Part shown: one piece after another, positions 1 to 9,000 of the stretch
Numbering within the stretch: position 1 is the stretch's first letter
Layout of the letters: each line of letters starts with the position of its first letter
From: Escherichia phage Lys8385Vzw
Strand: one strand, 5' to 3'
Sequence record: MT225100
DNA length: 50,953 bases
Position numbers: made by a program

Positions 1-3000
1 CTCACGCAGAGAAAAAATTCCCGTTTCAGGGCAGTTAACATGTTAACTGGCTGTCCGGGCATTTTTGCGGTTTTTATCTTTATTATTCAGTTTGTTGTGC
101 GGAAAAAATGTTAACTGGCTTTTTCAGCAAATGTTAACCAGGCAGCAGTTAACATTTGCGGCATGAGACGCCGGGAAAAATGGGCTGAACCATACCCGGC
201 TGAGTGCGTTCTGGACCCGGGAGGAGGCTGTGCTGACAACGCAAAAACGAAAATTTGCGCTGGCGCTCATGTCCGGGAAAAACAAAACAGCGTCAGCCAT
301 TGCCGCTGGTTATTCGGCGAAGACCGCCAGGGTTAAAGGCTCGCAGCTGGCAAAAGATCCGGAGGTGCTTGCGTTTATAGCCCGTAAACAATGCGAGACG
401 GTGGAGGTGGATGAGGTTCCTGTTTACCGGCAGAAAAAATCAGAGCAGGAGGATAAACCCCGTCGCCGTGAGGCGGCTGCAATACCACAGCCGGACGAAA
501 ACAATCCGGAGATGCCACCGTCCGCGGTGATGTCTCCTGGTATTGAATATATGGAGGATGGTCTTCCCGATCCGGTGAAAGCGATGGGGCGTCTTCTGGT
601 GGAGAACATTAATACCGACCCCAGGCTGGCGCTGGATGCGGCTTATAAGCTGGCGCAGTTCACGCACCATAAAAAAGGGGATGCCGGTAAAAAATCGGCA
701 AAAGGTGACGCCGCGAAAAAAGCGGCTAACCGTTTTGCGGTGCCACCACCACCCCGCCTGGTGGTGAATAATGATAATGAGGGCAACGGATGATACCTGT
801 GTGGAGCACGGCCTGCCCGGACTGGGCAGAGCGCCTGAAAAAGGGGCTGTCGATTATTCCGGCTCCGATTTATCCGGACCAGGCTGCACATGCACTGGCG
901 ATTTTTAAACAACTGCGGATTGTGGATGCACCGGGTAGCCCGACGTTCGGGGAGTCCTGCGCACCGTGGGTGTTTGACCTGGTGGCGGCCCTGTTTGGCT
1001 CCTACGATGCGCAGACCGGTGTTCGCCATATCAAGGAAGTGTTTATCCTTATCCCCAAGAAAAACAGTAAGTCCACGCTGGCTGCGGGGATCATGATGAC
1101 GGCGCTGTTACTGAACTGGCGGCAGGCGGCGGGCTACACCATTCTGGCCCCGACCGTGGAGGTGGCGGCTAACGCCTTCAACCCTGCCAGGGATATGGTA
1201 CGACGGGACGATGATCTGGATGACCTCTGTCAGGTGCAGACACATATCCGGACCATCACCCATCGGGTGACGGACACCACCCTGAAGGTGGTGGCAGCCG
1301 ATCCGAATACGGTGTCCGGTATCAAGTCCGTGGGGACACTGATTGATGAACTGTGGCTGTTTGGCAAGCAGTACAAAGCGGAAGACATGCTACGTGAAGC
1401 CATCGGCGGGCTTGCCTCCCGTCCGGAAGGATTTGTGGTGTACACAACCACCCAGTCGAATGAACCGCCTGCCGGGGTGTTCAGACAGAAACTGCAGTAC
1501 GCCCGGGATGTCCGTGACGGCAAAATTCATGATCCGCACTTTCTGCCGGTGATATTTGAACACCCTCCTGAAATGGTGGAAAGCGGGGCTCACCTGCTGA
1601 TGGAAAACCTCGCCATGGTCAATCCGAATCTCGGTTATTCGGTGGATGAGGCTTTTCTGTACCGGGAGTACCGTAAAGCCCGGGAGGCTGGTGAGGAAGC
1701 ATTTCGTGGCTTCATGTCAAAACATGCCAATGTGGAAATTGGTCTTGCCCTGCGTTCTGACCGCTGGGCGGGTGCGGATTTCTGGGAGCAGCAGGGCAGG
1801 CGCGTCAGCCTGGACGATATCCTGCAGCGCGCTGATGTGGTGACGGTGGGGATTGACGGCGGGGGCCTGGATGATCTGCTGGGAATGTACGTGATTGGCC
1901 GTGACAGGGAAACCCGCGAATGGCTGGGCTGGGGCCATGCCTGGGCGCATGAAACCGCGGTGGTCAGACGGAAGAGTGAGGCATCCCGTTTTCAGGATTT
2001 TGTGGCCTGTGGAGACATGACGATTGTCCGTCGGGTCGGGGATGACACGGCGGAAGTGGCGGAGTATGTGCGTCGTATTCATGAGGCTGAGTTACTGGAG
2101 CATATCGGTATTGACCCGTCAGGTGTGGGGCAGATTCTGGATTCACTGGCGGAAGCCGGGATCCCCGACGGAATTGTTGTGGGGATAAGCCAGGGCTGGA
2201 AGCTGGGCGGGGCCATAAAAACCACCGAGCGCAAACTGGCTGAGGGAGTACTGGTGCATGGTGGTCAGCCACTGATGGCCTGGTGCGTTGGCAATGCCCG
2301 GGTGGAGCCTAAAGGTAACGCCATTCTTATCACCAAACAGGCCAGCGGACGGGGAAAAATTGACCCGCTGATGGCGCTCTTCAATGCGGTGTCCCTGATG
2401 TCCCTGAATCCGGAACCGAAAAAGAAAGCGTATGAGGTTTTTTTCATATAACCCTGCTCACCCTGTAACCATCATGAACCGCTGCGGCGGTTTTTTTATT
2501 TTCAGGAGGCTGATGTGACTCTTAAACGGGCCTGTTCCCTGCTGACGGTGAAATCCTTCAGCGAGGATGAACGGGTGATCACCGGGATTGCGTCAACGCC
2601 TTCTCCGGATCGGGATGGTGACATCCTGGAGCCGGAGGGGGCGGAGTTTGGCAGTACGATCCCGTTTCTCTGGCAGCATGACCATTCCCGCCCTGTAGGC
2701 CAGTGTACGGTGCGTCGGGTCAGGGAAGGGCTGGAAATCACGGCAATGCTGGTGAAGCCCGTACCGGATATGCCGTCGCAACTGGCTGCCCGGCTGGATG
2801 AGGTCTGGGCGGCCATTAAGACCGGGCTGGTCAGGGGGCTGTCCGTGGGCTTCCGTCCCCATGAATACACTTATCTGGACGGAGGCGGACTGCATTTTCT
2901 GCGCTGGGAACTGATGGAGGTGTCTGCCGTCACCGTGCCCGCGAATGCGGAATGCACCATCCGGACCATTAAATCTTACGACCACCCGTTTTCTGCCGCG

Positions 3001-6000: not shown

Positions 6001-9000
6001 GATGTTGAGGGGGATACTGCGAAAATGACGGAACGGGAACTGTCCATTATTCGTGCACTGGGAGAAGAATTCGCCACGGTGCTGGCGGATTTACAGCGCA
6101 CATTTGAGGAGAAGATGGCCGCGCAGGCACAAGCGTTTGAAGAGAAACTGGCTTCCCTGTCTGTGGTATTACGGAAGTGCGTGACGGGCGATGATATGCG
6201 TCCGATGCTTGAGCAGATGGTGAAGGAGGCGGTAAGCCATATCCCTGTTCCGCGTGACGGTCGTGACTACGATCCGGATGTTCTGCAGAAGGCGGTTCTG
6301 GAGGCGGTGAGTGCCCTGCCGGCTCCGCAGGACGGGCGTGATGCCACGGCACTGGAAATACTCCCCGCCATTGACGATCAAAAATCCTTTCCCCGGGGCT
6401 CGTATGCCACACACCAGGGCGGACTCTGGCGGGCGTATGAAAAAACGCACGGGATGCGGGGATGGGAATGCCTGGTTGACGGGGTGGCGGATATTGACGT
6501 CAGTATGACGGGGGAGCGGTTGTTCTCTGTGGTGGTCCGGCAGAGCAGTGGCCAGCGTACGGAAAAAACATTTTCCCTGCCGGTGATGCTCTACCGCGGT
6601 GTGTTCAGAGCCGGTGAAACCTACCACCCCGGCGATACGGTGACGTGGGGGGGCTCGCTGTGGCACTGCAACAGTATGACCGGTGATAAACCCGGAGAAG
6701 CTCATTCATCAGGCTGGACCCTGGCTGCCAAACGTGGACGGGATGCAGGAGGCGGAAAATGACGGCATTACTGACACTGGAAGAGATCAAGGCACATCTG
6801 CGTGTCGACCATGACGCGGATGATGACATGCTGATGGACAAGGTTCGTCAGGCTACCGCCGTGCTGCTGGCCTACATTCAGGGCAGCCGGGATAAAGTGA
6901 TTCGTGAGGACGGTGAACTGATCCCGGGCGAGGCATTAACCCGGATGAAGGGGGCTGCCATGCGACTGACCGGGATGCTGTACCGGAATCCGGATCTTGC
7001 GGAGCGGGAAGAACTGATTCAGGGGGAGCTGCCGTTTTCTGTTTCCGTGCTGATTTACGATTTGCGTTGTCCGACGGTGTTATGAGGAGGGGGAATGGCA
7101 ATATCTGCAGGTCGTCTGACACAGATGATAAGTGTTCTGAACCCGGTGTTAACCCGTAATGCTGCCGGAGAAATGACGGAAGAATGGGTGTCATGCGGGA
7201 AAATTCATGCGGATATCCGTGGCAGGAGCAGCCGGGAGCGGATGCAGTCCGGTGCGGAAATGGCGCAGGCGGAAATCCGCATCTGGGTGCGCGGTCAGTC
7301 CGGCCGGGAAATCACGGCAGCGTCACGACTTCATGTGCTGAGTGGTCCCTGGCGTGACCGGATCCTGAACGTTGTCGGGCTGCCCGTGCCGGATGCGACC
7401 GGTGGGCGTCTGGAAATTCTCTGTCGGCTGGGAGGGGAAAAATGATCGAAACCCTGCTGGATTTTTCGGGGCTGGAGGACATCAGCCGCGATTTGCAGCT
7501 TCTGAGTGGTGCAGAAAATAACCGGGTGCTGCGTGAGGCAACCCGTGCGGGTGCGAATGTGCTGAAAGAAGAAGTGGTGTCACGGGCACCGGTACGCAGG
7601 GGAAAACTGCGCCGCAATGTGGTGGTCCTTTCCCGGTGCTCCCGCGATGGCGGGATGGAATCCGGTGTCCATATCCGTGGTGTTAATCCGGACACCGGTA
7701 ACAGCGATAACACCATGAAGGCGGATAACCCGCGCAATGCTTTCTACTGGCGGTTTGTGGAAATGGGGACCGTGAATATGCCACCGCACCCGTTTGTGCG
7801 CCCGGCGTTTGATGTGCGCAGTGAACAGGCAGCTCAGGTGGCGATTGCGCGGATGAACCGGGCCATTGATGAGGTACTGAGACGATGACGGAGGCGGATT
7901 TGTATCCTCATCTGGCACATCTTGCCGGCGGGCAGGTGTACCCGTATGTGGTCCCCCTGCTGGATGGCAGGCCGTCGGTGGCGCTTCCGTGGGTGGTTTT
8001 CAGTCTGATTTCATCGGTGTCGGCGGACGTGATGGGCGGGCAGGCGGAGTCCTCAGTGTCGGTGCAGATAGACGTTTATGCCGGGACTGTGACGCAGGCG
8101 CGTCAGATACGTCAGGACGCCCGTGAAGCCATAATGCTGCTGGCCCCGGGATCCGTCAGTGAAATGCAGGACTATATTCCGGAAAACCGCTGTTACCGTG
8201 CAACCCTGGAGTTTCAGGTCACGGTGTGACTTTTTCTTTTTTTCTACAAAACCCATACCCCGCCGCGTGCGGGTTTTTTATTATCAGGAGGCAGAATGTC
8301 TGCTTTGTATGAACGCTCACAGCTGACGCAGGTGATGATTTCATCTGCCCCGGCGACTGCTGAAACTATGGATAAGGCGGAATATCTGCGCCTGGACTGC
8401 ACCATCAAGGAAGTCCAGTTCACCGCCGGTCAGAAACAGGATATTGATGTGACCACGCTCTGCTCCACAGAGCAGGAGAACATCAACGGTCTGGGGGCGT
8501 CGTCCGAGATTTCCATGTCGGGTAATTTTTATCTGAATCAGGCCCAGAACGCCCTGCGTGATGCCTATGACAATGACACGGTGTATGCGTTTAAGGTGCA
8601 GTTTCCGTCCGGTAAGGGCTTTAAGTTCCTGGCGGAAGTGCGTCAGCACACCTGGTCATCCGGTACCAACGGCGTGGTGGCTGCAACGTTCTCACTTCGC
8701 CTGAAGGGTAAACCGGTGTCCTATGTGGTACCGCTGGCGTTTGTGAAAAATCCGGAGAAGACACTTACCGTGAATACCGGTGCGCTGCTGACAATGTCAG
8801 TCAGTGTCAACGGGGGAACGCCGCCTTATAAACACGCCTGGAAGAAGGATGGTCAGCCGGTAGAGGGACAGACTACTGACACTTTCAGTAAAGCCAATGC
8901 GCAGTCAGGTGATAAGGGGGCTTATACCTGCGAGGTAACGGATTCTGCAGAACAGCCGCAGAGCATTACCTCTGATGCGTGTACGGTAACGGTTAATGGT

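What the first reader, a model, noticed from the sequence alone, without database searches (positions are those of the whole stretch)
2515..6028. Atypical head-module arrangement: fused protease-capsid gene placed before the portal gene
The order here is terminase large subunit, protease-major capsid fusion, portal. Most HK97-type modules run portal, protease, capsid. A 211-bp gap with a possible 73-aa ORF (4497-4718) separates capsid and portal.
Basis: inference. Interest (0 to 1): 0.35.

Follow-up and report, generated by a model that had tools for sequence, protein, structure and literature searches.

The report
Capsid-before-portal head module, Stx phage

Summary
Observation confirmed. HMMs identify terL (790-2451), one 645-aa ORF (2515-4452) with an S78 prohead protease, a helical delta-like region and an HK97-fold capsid domain, and the portal (4664-6028). 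The 211-bp gap is exact. Its 73-aa ORF is a real, conserved small gene of unknown function.

The arrangement is not peculiar to this window, which is a Stx-converting lambdoid phage. The block occurs in 1255 of 5426 complete E. coli genomes. GenBank records already annotate the gene as "major head protein/prohead proteinase". In 78 of 81 related loci, from several bacterial phyla, the portal lies downstream of the capsid gene and never upstream. Sixteen of these loci keep the same order with protease and capsid as separate genes.

New inference: all 58 fused genes keep a start codon where the unfused capsid genes begin (window ATG 3091). It follows a Shine-Dalgarno motif in 52 of 58, against an 8.7% background. 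In the window it lies in the gene's lowest-GC stretch, at the end of a predicted disordered linker. The ORF therefore probably makes two products: a protease-capsid long form and a capsid-only short form. This resembles lambda C/Nu3 and herpesvirus UL26/UL26.5. No expression data were examined.

Novelty: already known. Interest: low to moderate.

The parts
230..793 (+). Terminase small subunit
   Evidence: PF03592, 35.8 bits; phrog_641, E 2.6e-68.
790..2451 (+). Terminase large subunit
   Evidence: PF03354 and PF20441; phrog_9 and phrog_7622.
2476..2493 (+). GC-rich hairpin followed by a T-run (terminator-like), between terL and the protease-capsid gene
   Evidence: Consensus scan; the number of such sites in the region is not above the shuffle expectation. 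HK97 has a putative terminator annotated at the equivalent place, before gp4.
2515..4452 (+). 645-aa ORF encoding the long form: S78 prohead protease, linker, delta-like helices and HK97-fold major capsid protein. GTG start, preceded by AGGAGG at 2504-2509.
   Evidence: Family matches. AlphaFold model, mean pLDDT 73.9. Foldseek matches to Bxb1, D3 and HK97 capsids, E 1e-10 to 2e-14.
2515..2937 (+). Protease domain (aa 1-141). His55 and Ser110 align with His65 and Ser114 of HK97 gp4.
   Evidence: PF04586 match at aa 48-152. BLASTP against HK97 gp4: 29% identity, E 9e-9. H55 and S110 are invariant in alignment A2. Structured strands at residues 10-139 in the model.
2938..3090 (+). Hypervariable linker (aa 142-192), predicted disordered
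   Evidence: pLDDT below 50 for residues 142-192. Indel-rich, poorly conserved columns in alignment A1.
3076..3093 (+). Inferred internal translation-initiation region: AAGGA at 3076-3080, a 10-nt spacer, and ATG 3091-3093 (Met193). This is the start of the inferred 453-aa capsid-only short form (3091-4452).
   Evidence: Sequence read. The lowest-GC 60-nt stretch of the gene lies here: 28% against about 58-60% for the gene as a whole. Start codon and SD are conserved in 58 and 52 of 58 fused homologues. The site is homologous to the start of unfused capsid genes.
3091..3384 (+). Delta-like scaffolding region: two long helices at aa 195-223 and 229-261, then a disordered stretch
   Evidence: AlphaFold model, pLDDT about 90 on the helices. 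The TIGR01554 match begins at aa 204.
3670..4419 (+). HK97-fold capsid body (Pfam match at aa 386-635)
   Evidence: PF05065; Foldseek.
4467..4488 (+). 9-bp GC-rich stem-loop 15 nt after the capsid stop codon, with no T-run
   Evidence: RNAfold. A hairpin of different sequence sits at the same place in nearly all of the 34 related loci folded (L003, L006-L035). HK97 has a putative terminator after gp5.
4497..4718 (+). Small conserved ORF (73 aa here; conserved core about aa 1-49). Function unknown. Its last 55 nt overlap the portal gene.
   Evidence: phrog_829, E 2e-39. A 55-aa Pantoea homologue ends at the portal ATG. An iterated HMM finds homologues at the same position in beta- and gammaproteobacterial loci. 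No Pfam, NCBIfam or PDB match. AlphaFold gave no confident model.
4664..6028 (+). Portal protein (454 aa)
   Evidence: PF04860, E 1.4e-80. TIGR01537, 357 bits. 27% identity to HK97 gp3, E 8e-25.
6025..6762 (+). Conserved post-portal gene (orf2, 245 aa): N-terminal helices, 'PVPxDGxD' repeats and a C-terminus that resembles CBM5/12. It overlaps the portal stop codon (ATGA).
   Evidence: Homologues follow the portal in most of the 80 loci. They are stand-alone proteins of 245-402 aa.
6759..8229 (+). Head-tail adaptor Ad1, head closure Hc1, an HK97 gp10-like protein and the tail completion protein, colinear with HK97 gp6 to gp9
   Evidence: Family matches; HK97 gene map.

Best explanation
This is the ordinary head-gene block of a large, old lineage of HK97-fold tailed phages and prophages. 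In E. coli it belongs to the long-tailed lambdoid Stx phages and the many lambdoid prophages of EHEC.

The conserved order of the lineage is (HNH)-terS-terL-[protease + capsid]-small ORF-portal-repeat protein-Ad1-Hc1 and onwards. Compared with HK97, the hairpin-bounded protease-capsid cassette and the portal gene have swapped places; everything downstream is colinear.

The 645-aa ORF is best read as a nested, two-product gene.

- **Long form.** Translation from GTG 2515 gives a 645-aa protein: S78 protease, a disordered linker, delta helices and the capsid domain.
- **Short form.** Initiation at the conserved internal site (AAGGA, then ATG 3091) gives a 453-aa delta-plus-capsid protein. This would supply most of the coat subunits.

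A minority of long-form subunits would co-assemble through their capsid domain. The protease would thus be carried into the procapsid covalently tethered. After assembly it would cut away the delta region, the linker and itself.

Shown here: the gene identities, the order, the distribution, the domain layout, and the conservation of the internal start and SD. Inferred: that the internal start is used, the ratio of the two products, and the cleavage events.
For: **Identity and order.**

**Already common and annotated.**
- The block is in 1255 of 5426 complete E. coli genomes, with up to 7 copies per genome.
- It is in 94 phage records, mostly Stx1a-, Stx2c- and Stx2a-converting phages.
- Existing annotations read 'putative major head protein/prohead proteinase' and 'phage major capsid protein'.

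**Size of the family.**
- 12562 representatives of 50%-identity clusters match at E<1e-3, and 1163 at E<1e-30.
- Nearly all of the top 150 are full-length proteins of 630-680 aa.

**Synteny.**
- In 78 of 81 loci a portal homologue lies downstream of the capsid gene, and never upstream.
- The same order holds in the isolated Burkholderia phage vB_SBP39, where protease and capsid are separate genes.
- It also holds in a ClpP-type protease-capsid fusion.

**Internal start.**
- Five unfused capsid representatives begin within 1-5 residues of the position aligned to Met193 (query 193-196).
- In 16 unfused loci the capsid ATG, with its SD, lies at that site.
- All 58 fused genes have a start codon in that column: 53 ATG, 4 GTG and 1 TTG.
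- 52 of the 58 have an SD of at least 4 nt at 4-12 nt spacing, against 8.7% of in-frame background positions.
- Among 16 representatives below 60% identity the count is 14 of 16, binomial P about 1.5e-13.
- The SD persists while the encoded residues change (KG, KE, KD, EV, and PKEG = CCG AAG GAG GGC). That points to selection at the nucleotide level.
- The window's lowest-GC stretch is at 3070-3129.
- The AlphaFold model is disordered over residues 142-192 and helical from residue 195.
- The ClpP-type fusion also keeps GGAGG plus ATG at its junction.
- Fused and unfused states are interspersed at ten or more places on a neighbour-joining tree.

**Protease residues.** His55 and Ser110 align with His65 and Ser114 of HK97 gp4.
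Against: - No transcript, ribosome-profiling or proteomic data were examined, so use of the internal start is unproven.
- A conserved Met and a purine-rich stretch could in principle be kept for protein-level reasons, or partly reflect repeated recent fusions.
- The neighbour-joining tree has no support values.
- The window's internal SD is only AAGGA with a 10-nt spacer, weaker than the AGGAGG in front of the long form.
- I found no paper that states or tests a two-product model for this family. The searchable library lacks most subscription-journal papers, including Liu & Mushegian 2004.
Confidence: 0.7

Rival explanations
1. It is a true obligate fusion. Only the 645-aa polypeptide is made, so every coat subunit carries its own protease, which removes itself and the delta region after assembly. 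On this view the internal Met and purine-rich motif are relics or serve protein-level roles.
For: - The reading frame is open and conserved at full length in thousands of homologues.
- The long form has the stronger SD (AGGAGG).
- Fusions named as such are recognised by NCBIfam (NF045541), by PHROGs (phrog_4523) and in papers on actinobacteriophages and Rhodobacter phages.
Against: - The SD is kept at the nucleotide level while the encoded residues vary. It is 6-fold (SD of at least 4 nt) to 23-fold (at least 5 nt) enriched over background.
- The start codon is kept in 58 of 58 fused genes inside a hypervariable, disordered linker.
- Fused and unfused states interconvert often. That is easy if the capsid protein is always translated on its own, and hard if the assembly pathway depended on an obligate fusion.
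Confidence: 0.22
2. The order is a local rearrangement, a misassembly or the decay of a defective prophage, specific to this window.
For: EHEC genomes carry many recombining and partly defective lambdoid prophages. Some E. coli copies of the gene have internal deletions (600-605 aa).
Against: - Sequence 100% identical over 3.7 kb occurs in several complete genomes.
- The same order is found in Stx-converting phage records.
- The same order is also found in 78 of 81 loci across phyla, and in an isolated Burkholderia phage.
Confidence: 0.02
3. The portal is really a longer gene of about 860 aa that is frameshifted in this phage (portal plus the next ORF), as PGAP annotates it. On this view the head module is damaged.
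For: PGAP marks 'phage portal protein, frameshifted' across both ORFs in strain RM8385. The phrog_2271 profile is 859 positions long and spans both ORFs. The junction CGA AAA TGA / ATG puts orf2 in the -1 frame.
Against: - The 454-aa ORF covers the whole portal models PF04860 and TIGR01537.
- It is close in length to HK97 gp3 (424 aa).
- The ATGA overlap is a normal translationally coupled junction, and it is kept in Pantoea.
- None of the 120 best orf2 homologues listed is a full-length portal-orf2 fusion of about 860 aa. Nearly all are proteins of 245-403 aa without a portal domain.
- The orf2 gene follows the portal as a separate ORF in distant loci.
Confidence: 0.05

Closest known systems
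Bacteriophage HK97 head module (gp1 to gp9: terS, terL, portal gp3, protease gp4, capsid gp5, Ad1 and onwards)
   Same: - Same protein families: S78 protease with the aligned His and Ser, an HK97-type portal (27% identity) and an HK97-fold capsid protein with an N-terminal helical delta region.
- The same downstream genes: Ad1, Hc1, the gp10-like protein and the tail completion protein.
- Hairpins bracket the protease-capsid pair in both.
   Different: - The portal lies after the capsid gene, not before the protease.
- Protease and capsid share one reading frame.
- Two extra conserved genes are present: the small ORF before the portal and the repeat protein after it.
- The capsid sequence is too distant from gp5 for BLASTP to detect.
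Lambdoid prophages of EHEC and long-tailed Stx phages (e.g. Escherichia phage JLK-2012, genus Marienburgvirus; Stx1a-, Stx2c- and Stx2a-converting phages)
   Same: This is the same module at 96-100% nucleotide identity. The gene is already annotated 'putative major head protein/prohead proteinase', followed by a hypothetical protein and the portal.
   Different: Nothing essential. The window's post-portal gene has one copy of a 162-bp repeat, where JLK-2012 has 3.3 copies.
Nested protease/scaffold genes: herpesvirus UL26/UL26.5 and phage lambda C/Nu3 (from established knowledge); protease-scaffold fusion of T1-like Drexlerviridae (bioRxiv 10.1101/2023.05.21.541620)
   Same: A protease is joined in frame to the assembly partner that takes it into the procapsid. 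In the herpesvirus and lambda cases the partner alone is also made, in excess, from an internal in-frame start. That is the logic proposed here.
   Different: Here the in-frame partner is the coat protein itself, with its delta (scaffold-like) region, rather than a separate scaffolding protein. Use of the internal start is inferred here and has not been demonstrated.
'Major capsid and protease fusion protein' of actinobacteriophages and Rhodobacter RcC-cluster phages; NCBIfam NF045541 'prohead protease/major capsid protein fusion protein'
   Same: The same kind of single ORF with a protease at the N-terminus and a capsid domain at the C-terminus.
   Different: These are different sequence families: the window protein scores 54.7 bits against NF045541, whose cut-off is 525. 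The gene order in those phages was not examined here.

Membership tests
HK97-family major capsid protein (PF05065 / TIGR01554) | Profile match above the curated cut-off | tested here: met
   PF05065, 53.5 bits against 24.2. TIGR01554, 79.4 bits against 27.5, aa 204-584.
HK97-family major capsid protein (PF05065 / TIGR01554) | HK97 fold of the C-terminal body | tested here: met
   The AlphaFold model has pLDDT 80-94 over most of residues 430-580. Foldseek against PDB finds Bxb1, D3, HK97, T5 and GTA capsid proteins, E 2e-14 to 1e-9.
HK97-family major capsid protein (PF05065 / TIGR01554) | N-terminal delta (scaffold-like) domain that is removed by the protease | tested here: inconclusive
   Two long helices are predicted at 195-261, in front of the capsid body. 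Cleavage cannot be tested with these tools.
Caudovirus prohead serine protease S78 (PF04586 / TIGR01543) | Profile match above the curated cut-off | tested here: met
   PF04586, 34.1 bits against 21. The narrower equivalog TIGR01543 scores 46.1, below its cut-off of 59. The protein is therefore a family member but not an HK97 gp4 equivalog by NCBI's rule.
Caudovirus prohead serine protease S78 (PF04586 / TIGR01543) | Catalytic His and Ser present (His65 and Ser114 in HK97 gp4; that residue assignment is from my own knowledge of the literature) | tested here: met
   BLASTP aligns window His55 with gp4 His65 and Ser110 with Ser114. Both residues are invariant in alignment A2.
HK97-type portal (PF04860 / TIGR01537) | Full-length profile match above the cut-off | tested here: met
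   PF04860 positions 2-321 of 321, E 1.4e-80. TIGR01537, 357.4 bits against 112.
Canonical HK97/lambda head-gene order (terL-portal-protease-[scaffold]-capsid) | Portal gene between terL and the protease | tested here: not met
   In the window the order is terL, protease-capsid, small ORF, portal. The HK97 order is shown.
Capsid-before-portal lineage (phrog_617 module) | Order terL, then protease and capsid (fused or adjacent), then a small ORF or gap, then portal | tested here: met
   Seen in 78 of 81 related loci, in vB_SBP39 and in the ClpP-type variant.
Nested protease/assembly-partner genes (UL26/UL26.5, lambda C/Nu3 type) | In-frame internal initiation site with an RBS at the start of the partner domain | tested here: met
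   AAGGA-N10-ATG at 3076-3093. Conserved in 58 of 58 (start codon) and 52 of 58 (SD) fused homologues.
Nested protease/assembly-partner genes (UL26/UL26.5, lambda C/Nu3 type) | Both products are actually made, with the short one in excess | not testable with these tools
   This needs proteomics, western blots or initiation-site profiling.
NCBIfam NF045541 prohead protease/major capsid protein fusion protein | Score above the curated cut-off | tested here: not met
   54.7 bits against a cut-off of 525, and the match covers only aa 49-287.

The most novel reading that the evidence does not exclude
The 'fusion' is a conserved two-in-one gene. Throughout this lineage the capsid gene's own ribosome-binding site and start codon survive inside the protease-capsid ORF, and this also holds in a ClpP-type variant. 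The fused and unfused states flip back and forth in evolution. The lineage would then deliver its maturation protease by tethering it covalently to a minority of coat subunits. That would be a phage counterpart of herpesvirus UL26/UL26.5 in which the coat protein itself is the carrier. I found no paper that describes this for the family, but the literature I could search was incomplete.
Probability: 0.6. Interest if true: 0.45.

Novelty: already known. Interest (0 to 1): 0.25.

Why it matters
**Annotation.**
- The block is a standard module and should not be flagged as rearranged.
- The post-portal gene should not be called a frameshifted portal.
- The small ORF is a real gene.

**Biology.** If the internal start is used, this very common module offers a simple, testable system for two questions: how a prohead protease is targeted, and how it is dosed. 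The module is present in about a quarter of complete E. coli genomes and in medically important Stx phages. Tethering to the coat protein would be a third solution, beside the C-terminal targeting peptide of HK97 gp4 and the protease-scaffold fusions of lambda, T1-like phages and herpesviruses. The frequent switching between fused and unfused forms would be a natural experiment on that question.

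Tried and rejected
- **Structure of the 73-aa ORF.** AlphaFold with the only alignment I was allowed to submit (E. 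coli variants) gave pLDDT 54 and no usable fold.
- **Function of the 73-aa ORF.** A profile search against PDB and scans of Pfam and NCBIfam gave nothing. PHROGs gives only families of unknown function. A lambda gpW-like role was considered because of the gene's position, but no evidence for it was found.
- **Solved structure of a close relative of the 645-aa protein.** None exists; the best PDB sequence hit is the Bxb1 capsid protein at E 0.004.
- **Locus search with the 28-sequence alignment.** It failed because no stretch was conserved enough. An 8-sequence alignment worked.
- **Literature.** Six full-text searches found no paper on this module's gene order or on internal initiation. Liu & Mushegian 2004 and the HK97 protease papers are not held. 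A 2025 EHEC phage proteomics paper reports peptide maps only for the short-tailed phages.
- **Portal frameshift (PGAP's reading).** Considered and rejected.
- **Terminator-like hairpins.** Their number in the first 9 kb is no higher than in shuffled sequence, so only their positions are informative.
- **Shorter E. coli variants (600-605 aa).** These are single-member clusters. The two deletions seen in the part of the alignment shown (P0004, P0006) lie in the delta/capsid part, not in the linker. They carry no information about the model.

Full report

Yes. On the + strand the window carries these genes:

| Feature | Coordinates |
|---|---|
| terS | 230-793 |
| terL | 790-2451 |
| 645-aa ORF | 2515-4452 |
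| 73-aa ORF | 4497-4718 |
| 454-aa ORF | 4664-6028 |

The HMM evidence is as follows.

- The 645-aa ORF matches Peptidase_S78 at aa 48-152 and Phage_capsid at aa 386-635, both above Pfam's cut-offs.
- It also matches TIGR01554 major_cap_HK97 at 79 bits against a cut-off of 27.5.
- It matches the PHROG family phrog_617 'major head protein' over its whole length, E 2.6e-260.
- The 454-aa ORF is a full-length HK97-type portal: PF04860 at E 1.4e-80, and TIGR01537 at 357 bits against a cut-off of 112.
- The capsid stop is at 4450-4452 and the portal ATG at 4664, so the gap is exactly 211 bp.

**2. What the window is**

It is a complete long-tailed, Stx-converting lambdoid phage genome, written starting just before terS. 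One search identifies these genes:

- a ribosome-inactivating-protein gene (Stx A subunit) at 41960-42916;
- the antiterminator Q at 40607-41401;
- a lysozyme at 46557-47090;
- an HNH endonuclease at 50529-50894;
- an integrase at 24174-25271 on the minus strand;
- an NleG effector at 22620-23540 on the minus strand.

**3. How common the block is**

- The 3.7-kb block 2400-6100 is 100% identical to prophages in several complete E. coli genomes, O103 strain RM8385 among them.
- It is present in 1255 of 5426 complete E. coli genomes, with up to 7 copies per genome.
- The first 9 kb match 94 phage records at 90-99% identity. Almost all are Stx1a-, Stx2c- or Stx2a-converting phages.
- Existing records already annotate the gene as 'putative major head protein/prohead proteinase', followed by a hypothetical protein and the portal (JLK-2012). 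PGAP calls it 'phage major capsid protein'.

The arrangement is therefore already on record.

**4. Is the order peculiar to this phage?**

No. The protein family is very large.

- An exhaustive phmmer search of 50%-identity cluster representatives gave 12562 hits at E<1e-3 and 1163 at E<1e-30.
- Nearly all of the top 150 are full-length proteins of 630-680 aa, at 38-54% identity to the window protein.

I fetched 80 loci from one genome per species. They include Enterobacterales, other Gamma-, Beta- and Alphaproteobacteria, and a few MAGs assigned to Bacteroidota, Firmicutes and Mycobacterium. I located homologues of the window's genes in them with phmmer, adding one Pantoea locus.

- In 78 of 81 loci a portal homologue lies downstream of the capsid gene. 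The other three loci end early or have no hit.
- In no locus is the portal between terL and the protease.
- Where terL is detected, it lies upstream of the protease-capsid gene, in nearly all loci immediately.
- A homologue of the post-portal gene and then the Ad1 adaptor usually follow.

The isolated Burkholderia phage vB_SBP39 has the order terS, terL, protease, capsid, a 58-aa ORF, portal, Ad1. HK97 itself runs terS, terL, portal, protease, capsid, Ad1, Hc1, gp10-like, tail terminator.

Relative to HK97, then, the protease-capsid cassette and the portal have changed places, and the rest is colinear. This is a trait of the whole lineage.

The punctuation is also shared with HK97.

- HK97 has putative terminators annotated before gp4, after gp5 and around the major tail gene.
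- The window has a hairpin with a T-run at 2476-2493, before the protease-capsid gene.
- It has a 9-bp GC hairpin at 4467-4488, just after that gene.
- It has another hairpin with a T-run at 8259-8273, before the major tail gene.
- A hairpin of unrelated sequence follows the capsid stop codon in nearly all of the related loci I folded.

**5. Fused or not?**

Of the loci with both parts, 57 plus the window have one reading frame. Nineteen have the protease and capsid in adjacent ORFs. Sixteen of those have clean junctions; in two of them a single in-frame stop codon separates the parts.

On a neighbour-joining tree of the capsid domain, the unfused loci are scattered among fused ones in ten or more places, often as close sisters. 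The tree has no support values. Even so, it suggests that the two states interconvert easily.

One related capsid protein (P0260) is fused to a ClpP-type protease instead of S78. Its gene sits in the same order: terL, fusion, a 97-aa ORF, portal.

**6. The internal start**

This is the main addition to what was already on record. The evidence comes from relatives and from the window itself.

*Evidence from relatives*

- Five unfused capsid representatives begin within 1-5 residues of the position aligned to window Met193 (query positions 193-196).
- In the 16 unfused loci, the capsid ATG lies at that site behind a Shine-Dalgarno motif.
- All 58 fused genes keep a start codon in that alignment column: 53 ATG, 4 GTG and 1 TTG.
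- It is the third most conserved Met column in the protein, although it lies in an indel-rich, hypervariable linker.
- In 52 of 58 genes a core SD of at least 4 nt lies 4-12 nt upstream. This compares with 8.7% of other in-frame positions in the same genes.
- In 22 of 58 genes the SD is at least 5 nt long, against a background of 1.6%.
- Among 16 representatives below 60% mutual identity, 14 have the SD (binomial P about 1.5e-13).
- The motif persists while the encoded residues change. Alphaproteobacterial genes encode Pro-Lys-Glu-Gly as CCG AAG GAG GGC. Enteric genes use Lys-Gly, Lys-Glu, Lys-Asp or Glu-Val codons that all spell AGGA or GAGG. That pattern points to selection on the RNA.
- The ClpP-type fusion has GGAGG followed by ATG at its junction.

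*Evidence from the window itself*

- The site is AAGGA (3076-3080), a 10-nt spacer, then ATG 3091.
- The lowest-GC 60-nt stretch of the whole gene is 3070-3129, at 28% against about 58-60% for the gene as a whole.
- The AlphaFold model (mean pLDDT 73.9) shows four regions:
  - a beta-rich protease domain at residues 10-139;
  - a disordered stretch at 142-192;
  - two confident long helices starting at residue 195;
  - an HK97 fold further on.
- Foldseek matches the C-terminal part to the Bxb1, D3, HK97 and T5 capsid proteins.

**7. Most likely mechanism**

The ORF probably gives two products.

- The first is a 645-aa protein made of protease, linker, delta region and capsid domain.
- The second is a more abundant 453-aa protein made of the delta region and capsid domain.

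Long-form subunits would co-assemble with short-form ones, so the protease would end up inside the procapsid. There it would remove the delta region, the linker and itself.

His55 and Ser110 align with His65 and Ser114 of HK97 gp4. Both are invariant among relatives.

The logic is that of herpesvirus UL26/UL26.5 and lambda C/Nu3 (established knowledge). The difference is that the coat protein itself is the carrier. None of the expression steps has been shown here. I put the probability that the internal start is used at about 0.6-0.7.

The main rival is that only the long form is made. That fits the open frame and the stronger upstream SD, but it does not explain the conservation at the nucleotide level. 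I have no functional explanation for why the capsid precedes the portal. The evidence shows only that the order is ancient and stable.

**8. The 73-aa ORF**

It is a real gene.

- The Pantoea homologue is 55 aa, shares 58% identity over the core, and stops at the portal ATG.
- An iterated HMM finds homologues at the same place in beta- and gammaproteobacterial loci, and weaker ones in alphaproteobacterial loci.
- These homologues share a short strand-turn-strand followed by 'R-x-A-x-V-L-V-x-L-G-R-A-x-Y'.
- Only about the first 49 residues are conserved.
- In E. coli variants the tail changes frame at an A-run. The 55-nt overlap with the portal therefore looks like a local extension.

Its function is unknown. 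There is no Pfam, NCBIfam or PDB match, and no confident structural model.

**9. The gene after the portal (6025-6762)**

PGAP merges it with the portal as a 'frameshifted' pseudogene, and one PHROG profile spans both genes. I reject that reading for four reasons.

- The 454-aa portal is complete against both portal models.
- The ATGA junction is kept in Pantoea.
- The 120 best homologues listed are nearly all proteins of 245-403 aa without a portal domain. Their names vary: 'phage portal protein', 'gp6-like head-tail connector' or 'carbohydrate binding domain'.
- The gene follows the portal as a separate ORF in distant loci.

The protein has helices at its N-terminus, 'PVPxDGxD' repeats, and a C-terminus with a sub-threshold CBM5/12 match. 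JLK-2012 carries 3.3 copies of a 162-bp repeat, whereas the window has one copy. That accounts for the 245 aa here against 407 aa there. Its role was not established.

**10. Comparison with known systems, and verdict**

- By profile and fold, the three proteins belong to the HK97-type capsid, S78 protease and HK97-type portal families.
- The module does not have the canonical HK97 order.
- The protein is not a member of NCBIfam's named fusion family NF045541 (54.7 bits against a cut-off of 525).
- The module belongs to the capsid-before-portal lineage documented above.

The finding is correct, but it describes a known, very common module. Novelty is 'already known', and interest is low. The modest extra value is the comparative evidence for a conserved internal start, together with the annotation corrections for the small ORF and the post-portal gene.

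Noticed in passing
window 6025-6762; L002 9025-10248: The post-portal gene is annotated elsewhere as part of a 'frameshifted' portal (PGAP) or as 'portal protein'. In fact it is a separate, conserved gene. It has a variable number of 162-bp (54-aa) tandem repeats: 1 copy here and 3.3 in JLK-2012. Its C-terminus has a sub-threshold CBM5/12 match. Its function is unknown; a head or neck fibre is possible.
   Followed up: partly
window 2476-2493, 4467-4488, 8259-8273: Hairpins bracket the protease-capsid gene and precede the major tail gene. HK97 has putative terminators annotated at the equivalent places. A hairpin of unrelated sequence follows the capsid stop codon in nearly all of the related loci folded. 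This may be a conserved way of setting relative expression or mRNA stability.
   Followed up: partly
window 4630-4718: The C-terminal tail of the small ORF differs by frame among E. coli variants, because of length changes in an A-run (CAGAAAAAGAAA). Some variants read into the short frame that starts at ATG 4657. Only about the first 49 residues are conserved.
   Followed up: partly
L087 2328-4445 (protein P0260): A related capsid protein is fused to a ClpP-type protease instead of S78. It has the same gene order and a retained internal GGAGG-ATG. This looks like a protease displacement within one architecture.
   Followed up: partly
proteins P0123 and P0131 (1091-1094 aa): In two cluster representatives, about 440 residues containing an AAA ATPase domain are joined upstream of the protease-capsid protein. 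This could be a gene-calling artefact or a real larger fusion.
   Followed up: no
window 41960-42916, 40607-41401, 43800-45632, 22620-23540 (-), 24174-25271 (-), 50529-50894: The window is a whole Stx-converting phage. It carries a Stx A subunit gene (RIP domain), antiterminator Q, a sialate-esterase-like gene (SASA plus DUF6645), an NleG type III effector, an integrase, and an HNH endonuclease immediately upstream of terS across the window ends.
   Followed up: partly
window 22000-35000: G+C content drops from about 57-60% in the structural genes to 39-47% in the region that holds NleG, the integrase and the early genes. This fits the mosaic make-up of lambdoid phages.
   Followed up: no
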